Shown here in pieces: positions 45,946 to 49,524 of a stretch of 64,000 bases of DNA. Source of the stretch: the human T2T-CHM13v2.0 reference genome, Homo sapiens. The stretch is taken from the NCBI GenBank assembly GCA_009914755.4, contig CP086569.2:29152001-29216000 (forward strand). Direction: 5' to 3'. The first letter of the stretch is position 1. Every line of letters starts with the position of its first letter. Below the pieces are notes generated by a model. The model was not told the origin of the DNA. It did not search any database and saw only the letters and a list, made by a program, of their open reading frames with translations. The position numbers and the translations under genes are program-made.

Positions 45946-47764
45946 TTGTTTCCATTCTCTTCGATTCCATTTCTTATATTCCATGCCATTCGATTCCATT
46001 CTATTGGATTGCATTACATTCGTGTTCATTCCATTCCAGACCATTCCATTTAACTCCATTCCTTTCGAGCCCTTTCAATTTGAGTCCATTCCTTTCCAGT
46101 CCATTTCACTCCAGTCCATTACTATCCATTCCATACCATTCCATCCCATTGCATTCCATTCCATTCCATTGCATTGCATTCCATTCCATTCCATTCCATT
46201 GCACTGCACTCCATTCCATTACATTCTATTCTATTTGAGTCGATTTTATTGCATTAGATTCTATTCCATTGGATTACTTTCCATTCGATTACATTCCATT
46301 CATGTACATTCCATTCCAGTGAATTACAATCGAGTTCATTACATTACATTCCAGTATATTCCATTGTGTTCGATCCCATTCCTTTCAATTCCATTTCATT
46401 CGACTCCATTATATTCGATTCCATTCCACTCGAATCCATTCCATTAGAGGACATTCCATTCCAATGCATTCCATTCCATTCCAAAGCATTCCATTGCATT
46501 CGATTCCATTCCATTTGATGCCATTCCATGACATTCCATTCCATTCGAGTCCATTCCGTTCCAATTCATTCCATTCCGTTTCATGAAATTCGAGTCCTTT
46601 CCATTCCATTTCATTCCAATCCCATCCAATCCAATCTACTCCATTCAATTCCTTTCCATTCCATTTGATTATATTCCATTGATTTGATTCCATTCAGTTT
46701 GATTCCATTCCGTGAAATTTCGTTCCATTCTATTCCATTGCATTACTTTCCATTCAATTCCATTCCATTTCATTTCAGTCCATTCGCTTCCTTTCCTTTC
46801 GATTCAATTCTATTTTATTCCACTCCATTCTATGCGATTTCATTCCAATCGATTCAATTCCATTCGATGACATTCCTTTCGTTTCCATTCCCTTCGAGTC
46901 CATTCAATTTGAGCATTCGTGTCCATTCTATTCGAGTCCATTCCATTACCGTCTATTCTATTCCCTTCCATTCCTGTTGATTCAATTTCATTCCCTTCCA
47001 TTCGATTCCTTTCCATTCGATTCCATTCCTTTCCATTCCATTCCATTCGTTCCCATTCCATGTGATTTCATTCCATTCCAGTCCATTATATTCGAGTCCA
47101 CTCCACTCCATTCTATTACATTCAATTCCTTTTGAGTCCGTTCCATAACACTCCATTCATTTCGATTCCTTTTCTTGCCAGTTTTCTTCCATTTTATTCC
47201 ATTCCGTTCGATTCCATTCCACTCGATTGCATTCCATTCGAATCCTTTCTATTCCATTCCATTTCATTCGATTTGATTCCATTCTGTTCTATTCCATTCA
47301 ATTCTTTTTCATTCCATTCGAATCCTTTCTATTGCAGTCCATTCCATTCGATTCCATTCCAACCCCTTCGATTCCATTCCATTACAGTCCATTCCAATAG
47401 ATTCCATTCCTTTCCCTTTCATTCTAATCCATTCCATTTGTGTCAATTCCTTTCCAATCCATTCGACTGGATTTGATTCTCTTTCATTCTATTTGATTGC
47501 ATGGCATTCCATTCCGTTTGATTCCAGACCATTCAAGAAAGTTCCATTCCAGTCCATTGCTTTCGAGTCCATTCCATTCTACTCTAGTCTATTCCATTCC
47601 ATTCCTTTCCATTCCATTCCATACTATTCCATTCCATTCCTTTGCATTCCGTTTCCAATCTATTCGAGTCCATTGCATTCCAGTCCAATCCATTCGATTA
47701 TATTCCTTTTAATTCCCTGCTAGTCGATTGCATTGCATACTAGACCATTCCAAAGGAGTCCATA
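45946..47764. repeat. DYZ1/HSat3 terminal HOR unit U14. Truncated ~1.9 kb into the unit and noticeably more diverged, with several pentamer-multiple deletions.
   Basis: Marker at 45946. It ends at 'ccaaaggagtccat', which in U13 lies 1918 bp into the unit (44301-44320) but here only 1818 bp in, so ~100 bp of deletions (e.g. 47221-47260, 47400-47480). Confidence 0.7.
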
Positions 47765-47780
47765 TGATATATTATTTAAA
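47750..47780. other. DYZ1 (HSat3) -> DYZ2 (HSat1B) array junction
   Basis: Sequence switches abruptly from '...ctagaccattccaaaggagtccat' to 'atgatatattatttaaagtatgtaataaaattatatata...'. Composition changes from CCATT-periodic to >85% A+T. Confidence 0.85.
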
Positions 47781-49524
47781 GTATGTAATAAAATTATATA
47801 TAACATAATATATGGTTATATGTATTGTATTATATATTTACGTATAATACTATACAGTTATATATAATTTTAAATACTTATATATAATAAAATATAAAAC
47901 ATATATAATATATATCATAAAATATATATTGTATACCATATATATTATGTATCATATATTGTATGTTATATAACATATATTGTATATCATATATCATATA
48001 TTACAAGGTATATATAACACATTCCACATATTGTATATTATAAGGAATTTATAATATATGACATACGTTTTATTACATATAATAAATTCTACGTTATATG
48101 TAACATAGAATATATTCTATGTAACATGTGTATCCTATATCAAATATGTAATATATAACATATATTATTTATAATTAATAACATAGACATATAATATATA
48201 TATAATACATGTATTATACATACAAAGTATTATATATAATATATAATACATATCATATATATGTCATAAAATATAATATATATTATATGTCATATATTAT
48301 ATATACAGTTATATATTATTATATGTTTTTTTATATTATATATAACCAGATATAATATATATTAACTATAGTGAATGTTATATATAACGTAGATATAATA
48401 TATATAATGTATATTATATACTTAATACGTACATTAACCATATAATATATTTGGTATATGATATATAATATATATTATATATGTCATAAAATATAATTAT
48501 TATATGTCATAGTGTATAAATATAATAGTTATACATTACCAGTTATTATAATACATATAATATATATAATATAAATGCAGGATGTAAAACAGTATTATAT
48601 ATATATGTTACATATATTATATATATGATTCTATATATTATTATATACATAATGTATAGATATAATTGTGGGGGCCCTATTTCCCATCTCATAACTTGTT
48701 TTAAGAAGCGCAGCATAATAACGTGTGGGCTTGGGATTCAGTTCTTGAAACAAAACTCTGAGCCTTCAATGACCTTTCGGTCTATGTAAAAGCACTCCTG
48801 TCTTCTTGGCAGCAGTTGGACCTCACAATGTGGATTGTGCCCTCACCCAGCAATGTTTATGCCCTATCGCCATGGTGACGGAACTAGGGGTCTCCTGCTC
48901 TTCGTCCTAAGGACCACTGTCTGTGCTGTGTCTTTCAAAGGTCAGAAGAGATTGAACCTTTGTGGTTTTATTTTCCCTGAGTTTGCTTTTTCTCATGGGG
49001 AACCTGTGTTGCTGCTTTGAAGGTATATTCATACTGGCCTTTCAAATGCCAACTCTTCAAATTACTAGTTAAGTCTTTCAAAATATGTTATTTAAAAAAT
49101 TATCCTCTGTATTTTCCATATGCAGTTATAAGTATGTTTCATGGTTATGTTTTATTCTTCAGTTTATACATTTGATTATTGTATCAAGCAGAGTACTTTT
49201 GAAATTTTTTTTCATTTAAAAAATGTGGATCTTGGCTCAGGCCTGTAATCACAGCAAATTTGGAGGCCAAGACAAGGGGATCACAAGGTGAAGAGATCAA
49301 GACCATCCTGGCCAATACAGTGAAACGCTGTCACTACTAAAAATCCAAAAAATTAGCTAGGCATGGTGGCAGCTGCTGTAGTCCCAGTGTGGTGTAGTCC
49401 CAGCTACCTGGGAGGCTGAGGGAGGACAATCGCTTGGACCTGTGAGGCAGATGTTGCAGTGGGCAAAGATGGCGCCATTGTACTCCACCCTCTGCAACAG
49501 GACAAGACTCTGTCTAAAAAAAAA
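47765..49524 (+). repeat. DYZ2 unit 1 (edge copy). AT-rich module 5'-truncated (~900 of ~1560 bp) and clearly more diverged than interior copies.
   Basis: AT-rich 47765-48666, unique module 48667-49233, Alu 49234-49524. The AT-rich part aligns to the distal half of later AT modules (e.g. 50171-51084) with many substitutions and indels. The unique module differs at several sites ('gggggccctatttccc' vs 'gggtgccctttttccc', 'gcagcataataacg' vs 'gcagcctaataacg'). Confidence 0.7.
49234..49524 (+). mobile_element. Alu (SINE) fragment embedded in the DYZ2 unit. 5'-truncated by ~10 bp, strongly CpG-decayed, with poly(A) tail.
   Basis: 'ggctcaggcctgtaatcacagcaaatttggaggccaag...gaccatcctggccaatacagtgaaac...actaaaaatccaaaaaattagctaggcatggtggc...gtagtcccagctacctgggaggctgaggg...ttgcagtgggcaaagatggcgccattgtactccaccc...gacaagactctgtctaaaaaaaaa' matches the Alu consensus left and right monomers. 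Sub-family was not resolvable by eye. Confidence 0.85.

What the first reader, a model, noticed from the sequence alone, without database searches (positions are those of the whole stretch)
47700..47830. Exact DYZ1->DYZ2 junction: both satellites are broken mid-unit
The HSat3 array ends at '...gcatactagaccattccaaaggagtccat', ~1.82 kb into its own 3.5 kb HOR in my phase. The 2.4 kb repeat starts ~650 bp into its AT-rich module ('atgatatattatttaaagtatg...'). There is no target-site duplication, no linker sequence, and at most 2-4 bp of possible microhomology ('ccat/at').

If Yq12 was built by amplifying a composite DYZ1+DYZ2 super-unit, the same breakpoint should recur at every DYZ1->DYZ2 transition. 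Independent breakpoints would instead argue for repeated separate invasions.
Basis: partly seen in the sequence, partly recalled or inferred. Interest (0 to 1): 0.6.

Follow-up and report, generated by a model that had tools for sequence, protein, structure and literature searches.

The report
Human Y DYZ1–DYZ2 satellite junction
This is a real, blunt join between the two big satellite repeats of the human Y long arm. An independent public contig carries the same join in a diverged copy, so it was probably made once and then copied along with its arrays, which fits what is already known about this region.

Summary
A (CATTC)n-derived array with a 3.5-kb repeat unit (DYZ1/HSat3 type) ends at base 47763. 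An AT-rich 2.42-kb repeat carrying an Alu fragment (DYZ2/HSat1B type) starts at 47764. There is no filler, and the overlap is 1 bp (T47763).

The break lies 1.98 kb past the DYZ1 HaeIII site. In DYZ2 it lies 628 bp past the Alu fragment, inside the AT-rich module.

- **DYZ1 side:** the last ~0.5 kb carries four deletions (25, 35, 15 and 15 bp) and extra substitutions.
- **DYZ2 side:** the first ~0.92 kb is only about 85% identical to canonical units. Identity then jumps to about 99% where the GC-rich module begins.

A metagenome contig (PKQM01000722.1, presumably human contamination) has the same breakpoint, the same deletions and the same diverged flank. It differs from the window at about 3.6% of sites, too much for an allele. 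It is therefore best read as a second, paralogous copy of one ancestral junction.

This favours amplification of composite DYZ1+DYZ2 blocks, which the T2T-Y and HGSVC papers already infer at megabase scale. Whether every transition shares this breakpoint could not be tested, because no complete Y assembly is available in these tools. Ordinary biology, modest interest.

The parts
1..47242 (+). DYZ1/HSat3-type array. (CATTC)n-derived units of 3,505-3,554 bp, 13 copies in the breakpoint phase (1960-47763), 99.1-99.7% identical to their consensus.
   Evidence: Lag peak at 3544. Unit boundaries and HaeIII spacing of 3,509-3,549 bp. Identity profile.
47243..47763 (+). Degenerate DYZ1 edge (relic). 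Deletions of 25 bp (after 47242), 35 bp (after 47445), 15 bp (after 47465) and 15 bp (after 47490), with raised substitution density over 47350-47720. The last 43 bp match the consensus exactly.
   Evidence: Alignment to the DYZ1 consensus. All four deletions and 13 substitutions are shared with contig L001.
47763..47764 (.). The junction. DYZ1 homology ends at T47763 and DYZ2 homology begins at T47763/A47764. Overlap is 1 bp, with no inserted bases.
   Evidence: Pairwise alignments to the previous DYZ1 copy and the next DYZ2 copy. The 23-mer is unique in the window. The same join is present in L001.
47764..48680 (+). Diverged AT-rich partial DYZ2 module (relic). It is collinear with canonical positions 50152 to about 51090 but only 79-93% identical per 100-column bin. 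It has one copy of a ~22-bp motif that is tandemly duplicated in canonical units.
   Evidence: Identity profile and alignment. 104 substitutions and 37 indel columns are shared with L001 against a canonical unit.
48681..64000 (+). Canonical DYZ2/HSat1B-type units of 2,416-2,433 bp. The rest of the first unit is followed by about 5.7 further units, 96-100% identical per 100-column bin.
   Evidence: Lag peak at 2418. Identity profile. Pairwise difference matrix.
49233..49523 (+). 5'-truncated, ~77% identical Alu fragment of the first DYZ2 unit, in sense orientation on the + strand. It recurs at 51653, 54073, 56504, 58922, 61340 and 63758.
   Evidence: A cluster of four HaeIII sites overlaps or lies just upstream of it.

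Best explanation
This is one copy of an old, single-origin illegitimate join between a DYZ1 (HSat3) array and a DYZ2 (HSat1B) array in the human Yq12 heterochromatin.

The join looks like end-joining: it is blunt, with 0-1 bp of microhomology and no filler. The junction was later copied passively when large blocks containing both arrays were tandemly duplicated by unequal sister-chromatid exchange.

Sequence next to the junction has homology on one side only. The last ~0.5 kb of DYZ1 and the first ~0.9 kb of DYZ2 therefore largely escape the crossover and gene conversion that keep interior units about 99% alike. They have decayed into junction-specific relics.

**Shown:** the exact breakpoint, the two relic flanks, and a second diverged copy with the same breakpoint and the same relic-specific changes.

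**Inferred:** the end-joining origin, escape from homogenisation as the cause of the relics, and propagation by block duplication. The last of these is taken from the literature.
For: **The join itself**
- The breakpoint is defined to the base, with a 1-bp overlap and no insert.

**The second copy**
- The reverse complement of contig L001 (PKQM01000722.1, 1,841 bp) aligns end to end with window 47081-48918. Identity is 96.25%, with 66 mismatches and 2 gap openings, and the join is identical.
- Three-way comparison with canonical sequence:
  - DYZ1 edge: 13 shared substitutions and 90 shared indel columns, against 9 sites private to the window and 10 private to L001.
  - AT-rich DYZ2 edge: 104 shared substitutions and 37 shared indel columns, against 21 private to the window and 12 private to L001.
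- Private changes are roughly balanced (about 34 in the window against 28 in L001). That is what two lineages from one ancestor would show.

**Paralogue rather than allele**
- 3.6% divergence exceeds what alleles of extant human Y chromosomes could reach even at the elevated Yq12 rate. At 3.86e-7 per bp per generation (PMC12240836), about 180 kyr gives roughly 0.5%.

**Extent of the decay**
- Interior units on both sides are 99-100% identical. The decay is confined to about 0.5 kb plus 0.9 kb at the join.

**Literature**
- Iterative tandem duplications of up to 5 Mb span several DYZ1/DYZ2 blocks and fit unequal exchange (10.1101/2022.12.01.518724).
- Units at array ends are more diverged than central ones, and unequal sister-chromatid crossover duplicates whole arrays (10.1101/2022.12.01.518658 and its supplement).
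- Yq12 length tracks array number, not array size (PMC13252187).
Against: - Only one additional copy was recovered, and its sample of origin is unknown.
- Two scans of bacterial genome contigs found nothing, so the number of junctions sharing this breakpoint is unknown.
- The DYZ2 relic returns to canonical identity in a sharp step at about 48.68 kb, exactly at the boundary between the AT-rich and GC-rich modules. A simple edge-effect model predicts a gradient instead.
- Shared divergence is very unequal: about 11% on the DYZ2 side against about 2.5% on the DYZ1 side. If both flanks were frozen at the same moment, this needs a further explanation.
- The origin mechanism cannot be distinguished from replicative template switching using one junction.
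Confidence: 0.75

Rival explanations
1. Compound junction. The 0.92-kb AT-rich segment is not a decayed piece of this DYZ2 array. It is a fragment of a different, older HSat1B variant, for example the type found on acrocentric chromosomes or in peripheral Yq12 arrays. DYZ1 was joined to that variant, and the step at about 48.68 kb is a second, older recombination point with the modern DYZ2 array. This is compatible with later amplification.
For: - Divergence is a flat 79-93% per 100-column bin across the whole 0.92 kb, then jumps to 99-100% within about 40 bp at the module boundary.
- The step is shared by the window and L001, so it predates their split.
- Shared divergence on the DYZ2 side (~11%) is about four to five times that on the DYZ1 side (~2.5%).
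- Private divergence in the AT-rich relic and in the adjacent GC-rich part is similar (about 3-4%). This argues against simple AT-rich hypermutability.
- The Hallast supplement reports older DYZ2 types at the Yq12 periphery that resemble acrocentric copies.
Against: - The segment is perfectly collinear with the canonical module, in the correct phase with the GC-rich module that follows.
- No acrocentric or peripheral HSat1B sequence was available for comparison.
- A single ancestral conversion or crossover ending at the module boundary would produce the same step.
Confidence: 0.25
2. The founding join arose by replicative template switching (FoSTeS/MMBIR-type) between a DYZ1 template and a DYZ2 template, not by end-joining of broken ends.
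For: A 1-bp overlap at the join is compatible with microhomology-primed switching. Satellite arrays are prone to replication stress (general knowledge, not tested here).
Against: One base of overlap is no more than chance expects, about 1 in 4 per position and higher in AT-rich sequence. There are no templated insertions, inversions or multiple switches at the join.
Confidence: 0.2
3. Independent invasions. Each DYZ1-to-DYZ2 boundary was made separately, and L001 is simply the same locus from another man (an allele), so nothing recurs.
For: Only one extra sequence was found, and its donor is unknown. Yq12 mutates unusually fast (PMC12240836).
Against: - 66 substitutions in 1.84 kb (3.6%) is several times the maximum allelic divergence expected over the ~180 kyr of extant Y lineages, even at 3.86e-7 per bp per generation.
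- The differences are almost all substitutions, not the indels expected from noisy reads.
- Published dot plots show that multi-array blocks have been duplicated, which necessarily copies junctions.
Confidence: 0.06
4. Assembly artefact. The join is a chimeric misassembly between a DYZ1 read set and a DYZ2 read set.
For: Satellite regions are the hardest to assemble (general knowledge).
Against: An unrelated metagenome assembly contains the same join with the same junction-specific flanks. The flanks have a distinctive decay pattern that a chimera would not create.
Confidence: 0.01

Closest known systems
Alternating DYZ1 (HSat3A6) / DYZ2 (HSat1B) blocks of human Yq12 as described for T2T-Y (Rhie et al. 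2023, 10.1101/2022.12.01.518724)
   Same: - A pentamer-derived ~3.5-kb unit abuts a ~2.4-kb tripartite unit made of an AT-rich region, a diverged AluY fragment and a GC-richer region.
- Units are over 98% alike.
- Blocks were amplified by iterative tandem duplications spanning several blocks.
- Block boundaries were annotated and manually refined in that work.
   Different: The text I could read gives no base-level description of the breakpoints and no comparison between junctions. The relic flanks and the shared breakpoint shown here are added detail, not a new kind of structure.
Edge-diverged satellite arrays in 43 and 142 Y assemblies (Hallast et al. 2023, 10.1101/2022.12.01.518658; PMC13252187)
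   Same: - Units near array ends are more diverged than central ones.
- Arrays are gained and lost as wholes by unequal sister-chromatid exchange.
- Older DYZ2 types survive at the periphery.
   Different: Those analyses work at whole-unit resolution. Here the decay is confined to less than one unit on each side (0.5 kb and 0.92 kb), and on the DYZ2 side it ends in a sharp step.
Layered, diverged edges of centromeric alpha-satellite repeat arrays
   Same: A homogenised core is flanked by older sequence that no longer takes part in concerted evolution.
   Different: Alpha-satellite edges span tens to hundreds of kilobases of monomeric layers. Here the relic is about 1.4 kb and sits between two unrelated, actively homogenising arrays.
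Segmental-duplication junctions propagated as part of a larger duplicated block
   Same: One illegitimate join is inherited by all daughter copies. Paralogous copies share the breakpoint and then diverge.
   Different: The duplicated blocks are themselves satellite arrays whose interiors are continually overwritten. Only the junction flanks keep a record of the duplication history.

Membership tests
DYZ1 / HSat3A6 | Derived from tandem CATTC (GGAAT) pentamers | tested here: met
   Sequence read directly. Direct-repeat spacing of 10, 15 and 16 nt. Strong C-over-G skew of -0.5 to -0.6 across 1-47.7 kb.
DYZ1 / HSat3A6 | ~3.56-kb repeat unit with one HaeIII site per unit | tested here: met
   Units are 3,505-3,554 bp. 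Single GGCC sites are spaced 3,509-3,549 bp apart from 17493 to 45780. The copies before 13989 lack the site. The modal length here is 3,544 bp, against the classical 3,564 bp.
DYZ2 / HSat1B | ~2.4-kb unit (modal 2,413 bp in the literature) | tested here: met
   Lag peak at 2418. Units are 2,416-2,433 bp.
DYZ2 / HSat1B | Tripartite unit: an extremely AT-rich part, a 5'-truncated diverged AluY fragment and a GC-richer part | tested here: met
   The AT-rich part is about 1.55 kb at 8-20% GC and the GC-richer part is about 0.57 kb. The Alu fragment covers AluY positions 13-288 at 77-78% identity, matching the '20% diverged' figure.
DYZ1 and DYZ2 as Yq12 sequence | Located in human Yq12 | not testable with these tools
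   No human reference genome is available in the tools. The assignment rests on agreement with published descriptions.
Paralogous junctions produced by amplification of a composite DYZ1+DYZ2 block | The same breakpoint and the same junction-specific flanks occur in two or more diverged copies | tested here: met
   L001 compared with the window shows an identical join, about 117 shared substitutions and about 127 shared indel columns relative to canonical sequence, and 3.6% mutual divergence.
Paralogous junctions produced by amplification of a composite DYZ1+DYZ2 block | The breakpoint is shared by all or most of the roughly 17-43 DYZ1-to-DYZ2 transitions of one Y chromosome | not testable with these tools
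   This needs a complete Y assembly. Genome-contig scans found nothing. The viral collection lacked even a canonical DYZ2 27-mer, so its null result says little.
Retrotransposition (target-primed) insertion | Poly(A) tail at the junction and target-site duplication flanking the insert | tested here: inconclusive
   There is no A-tail at the join, and the nearest Alu A-tail homologue is 628 bp away. A target-site duplication cannot be assessed because the other end of the array is outside the window.
Palindromic AT-rich repeat (cruciform) mediated breakage | The breakpoint lies at the centre of an unusually stable long inverted repeat | tested here: not met
   120-nt DNA folding windows roughly centred on the canonical breakpoint homologue (50151/2) give -7.9 to -11.7 kcal/mol. 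The module mean is -11.7 with SD 2.1. Inverted repeats there are only 71-73% complementary and are common throughout the module: 62 pairs in 451 nt.
End-joining type illegitimate junction | Blunt or 0-4 bp microhomology join of unrelated sequences without long homology | tested here: met
   1-bp overlap, no filler and no shared sequence between the partners. The enzymology itself cannot be tested.

The most novel reading that the evidence does not exclude
All, or nearly all, DYZ1-to-DYZ2 transitions on human Yq12 descend from one founding join. Their ~1.4-kb relic flanks escape concerted evolution. They would then act as a built-in set of slowly diverging, low-copy markers. A tree of junction copies would reconstruct the order and timing of the block duplications that built the largest heterochromatic region of the genome. 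The AT-rich relic would preserve a fossil of pre-homogenisation HSat1B.
Probability: 0.4. Interest if true: 0.45.

Novelty: already known. Interest (0 to 1): 0.25.

Why it matters
The alternating DYZ1/DYZ2 architecture and its growth by duplication of multi-array blocks are already established, so the junction itself is expected.

The useful residue is practical. The junction and its ~1.4 kb of non-homogenised flanks are among the few low-copy, slowly diverging sequences inside tens of megabases of near-identical satellite. If they recur at every transition, they could serve three purposes:
- anchors for validating Yq12 assemblies;
- simple markers for counting arrays;
- characters for reconstructing the genealogy and rough dates of array duplications across Y haplogroups.

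A rough date for the split between the two copies seen here is about 1-1.5 Myr. This uses the published Yq12 mutation rate and is an inference with wide error.

Tried and rejected
1. **A 22-nt 'filler' at 47764-47785.** BLAST and MAFFT start the DYZ2 alignment only at 47786. A gapped alignment shows this is a register artefact. The relic has one copy of a ~22-bp motif that canonical units carry in tandem, and homology then runs up to the join.
2. **Cruciform or palindrome-mediated breakage.** The folding scan shows nothing special at the breakpoint.
3. **Retrotransposition.** There is no A-tail at the join. A target-site duplication is untestable.
4. **More junction copies from other collections.** All of these were empty:
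   - bacterial genome contigs, scanned with the junction 24-mer and with a relic-specific 24-mer;
   - viral contigs, three scans; a canonical DYZ2 27-mer was also absent, so this null is uninformative;
   - plasmid and phage megablast.
5. **Protein route to human-derived contigs.**
   - Six exact look-ups of ORFs in or next to the relics found nothing.
   - One homology search with the 114-aa ORF of the DYZ1 edge returned three short proteins from NCBI records. Only part of each resembles HSat3 translation, and none is from a junction.
6. **Origin of contig PKQM01000722.1.** The accession prefix appears in no held paper.
7. **Literature on base-level junction comparison.** I found none in the main texts or the one held supplement of the T2T-Y, HGSVC-43 and 142-assembly papers.
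Full report
**1. What is at the coordinates**

The window holds two tandem arrays. From base 1 to 47763 the sequence is a (CATTC)n-derived satellite with GC near 0.38 and a strong C-over-G skew. From 47764 to 64000 it alternates between extremely AT-rich and moderately GC-rich stretches with no skew. Autocorrelation gives periods of 3544 bp on the left and 2418 bp on the right.

The left array has one HaeIII (GGCC) site per unit, spaced 3,509-3,549 bp apart. The right array has a cluster of four sites per unit.

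Each right-hand unit has three parts:
- about 1.55 kb of 8-20% GC sequence;
- about 0.57 kb of GC-richer sequence;
- a 5'-truncated Alu fragment covering AluY positions 13-288 at 77-78% identity.

These properties match the published descriptions of DYZ1/HSat3A6 and DYZ2/HSat1B of human Yq12. No human reference is available in the tools, so the chromosomal assignment rests on that agreement.

**2. The breakpoint**

On the DYZ1 side, the 21-mer GACCATTCCAAAGGAGTCCAT occurs once per unit, 14 times with at most 1 mismatch. In the 13 earlier copies it is followed by TCCATTC... At 47763 it is followed by ATGATAT....

On the DYZ2 side, BLAST and MAFFT begin the homology only 22 nt after the join. 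This is a register artefact. In the register T47763 <-> T50151 the first 59 bases match a canonical unit at 47/59 (my count from the alignment), including TATGATAT at the join itself. The relic then lacks one copy of a ~22-bp motif that is tandemly duplicated in canonical units.

So there is no filler and the overlap is a single T. The junction 23-mer is unique in the window even with three mismatches allowed.

The DYZ1 break is 1,983 bp after the unit's HaeIII site. The DYZ2 break is 628 bp after the end of the Alu fragment, inside the AT-rich module. 'Mid-unit' is therefore correct. For DYZ1, however, it only reflects a conventional phase. Absence of a target-site duplication cannot be judged from one end of the DYZ2 array.

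**3.

Interior DYZ1 copies are 99.1-99.7% identical to their consensus. The final copy is canonical up to about 47242. It then carries deletions of 25, 35, 15 and 15 bp, all multiples of the pentamer, and extra substitutions over 47350-47720.

On the other side, the six downstream DYZ2 units are 96-100% identical to one another in nearly every 100-column bin. The first 0.92 kb after the join (47764 to about 48680) is only 79-93% identical to them. Identity jumps to 99-100% within a few tens of bases, exactly where the GC-rich module starts.

**4. Does the breakpoint recur?**

A scan of public metagenome contigs with the junction 23-mer returned one contig, PKQM01000722.1 (L001, 1,841 bp). Its reverse complement aligns end to end with window 47081-48918 at 96.25% identity, with 66 mismatches and 2 gap openings. 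The join is identical.

A three-way comparison with canonical sequence gave these counts. 'Shared' means the window and L001 agree with each other and differ from canonical.

| Region | Shared substitutions | Shared indel columns | Private to window | Private to L001 |
|---|---|---|---|---|
| DYZ1 edge | 13 | 90 (all four deletions) | 9 | 10 |
| AT-rich DYZ2 edge | 104 | 37 | 21 | 12 |

The step back to canonical sequence at about 48.7 kb is also shared. The two sequences therefore descend from one junction that already had its relic flanks, and they have since diverged by about 3.6%, roughly symmetrically.

Yq12 mutates at about 3.86e-7 per bp per generation (PMC12240836). Alleles separated by the ~180 kyr of extant Y lineages would then differ by about 0.5%. 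The contig is thus best read as a paralogous junction copy, or a path through several copies. At that rate the split is of the order of 1-1.5 Myr old. This is an inference with wide error.

L001 ends about 160 bp and 240 bp after the sequence becomes canonical on either side. That is what a short-read assembler would produce if the relic is low-copy and the arrays are high-copy.

**5. Mechanism**

- **Founding event (inferred).** A blunt join of two unrelated sequences, with one base of overlap and no templated insertion, is most simply an end-joining event. Replicative template switching cannot be excluded. I found no support for a cruciform-type break or for retrotransposition (no A-tail at the join).
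- **Propagation (from the literature).** Iterative tandem duplications of up to 5 Mb span several DYZ1 and DYZ2 blocks. Whole arrays are gained and lost by unequal sister-chromatid exchange, and Yq12 length tracks the number of arrays. Every such event copies the junctions inside the block.
- **Relic flanks (inferred).** They are what one expects if crossover and conversion tracts need homology on both sides, so sequence within a few hundred bases of a heterologous join is rarely overwritten.

**6. What remains unexplained**

- The DYZ2 relic ends in a step rather than a gradient.
- Its shared divergence (~11%) is about four to five times that of the DYZ1 relic (~2.5%).
- Private divergence is similar in the AT-rich relic and in the adjacent GC-rich part, which argues against simple AT-rich hypermutability.

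Either a single ancestral conversion or crossover ended at the module boundary, or DYZ1 was originally joined to an older HSat1B variant. The Hallast supplement notes older, acrocentric-like DYZ2 types at the Yq12 periphery. I could not test this because no such sequences are available in the tools.

**7. Limits**

Only one extra copy was found. The following gave nothing:
- two scans of bacterial genome contigs;
- three scans of viral contigs, which lacked even a canonical DYZ2 27-mer;
- plasmid and phage BLAST;
- six exact protein look-ups;
- one protein homology search.

Whether all transitions share this breakpoint needs a complete Y assembly.

**8. Comparison with what is known, and verdict**

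The arrays, their alternation, the annotated boundaries, the diverged array ends and amplification by block duplication are all published. In the texts available to me I found no base-level comparison of junctions. The shared breakpoint and the ~1.4-kb relic are a modest added detail that fits the accepted model.

The finding is real and correctly located, and its proposed test comes out in favour of composite-block amplification as far as it could be run. It is not surprising to a specialist. Interest 0.25; novelty: already known.

Noticed in passing
window 48640-48720: Identity of the first DYZ2 unit to canonical units jumps from about 85% to about 99% within a few tens of bases, exactly at the boundary between the AT-rich and GC-rich modules. 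The window has an extra HaeIII site at 48673, a position where L001 differs from it. The step is shared by L001, so it is older than the split between the two junction copies.
   Followed up: partly
window 50188-50240 versus 47797-47840: Canonical DYZ2 units carry a ~22-bp motif (ATATAGTTATATATAATATATT-like) as a tandem pair. The junction relic, in both the window and L001, has a single copy. This is either a fossil of the state before duplication or a deletion in the relic.
   Followed up: partly
window 1-17500: The first DYZ1 copies (before 13989) lack the HaeIII site that defines the classical 3.56-kb fragment, and there is an extra site at 16768. In a digest this stretch would give HaeIII fragments much longer than one unit.
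   Followed up: no
window 5480-12549 and 26636-37232: There is local substructure in the DYZ1 array. Units 5480-9014 and 9015-12549 differ at only 10 positions. Units 26636-30179 and 33689-37232 differ at only 11, although they are separated by a different unit. This fits a recent duplication of a two-unit (7,053-bp) block, matching the secondary lag peak at 7053.
   Followed up: partly
window about 54600-54800 (unit 52592-55024): One DYZ2 unit is 2,433 bp long, about 13 bp longer than its neighbours. It has a local patch of 81-91% identity in its second AT-rich part.
   Followed up: no
L001 1-1841 (PKQM01000722.1): The metagenome contig begins and ends 160-240 bp after the sequence becomes canonical DYZ1 or DYZ2. 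This suggests the assembler could resolve only the low-copy relic and stopped at the high-copy arrays. The contig is presumably human Y contamination in a metagenome, as the T2T-Y paper describes for bacterial RefSeq.
   Followed up: partly
proteins P0001-P0003: Three short 'proteins' from NCBI records consist partly of HSat3-like translation (HSIPF-type repeats) joined to unrelated sequence. They are likely gene calls on contaminated or chimeric contigs.
   Followed up: no
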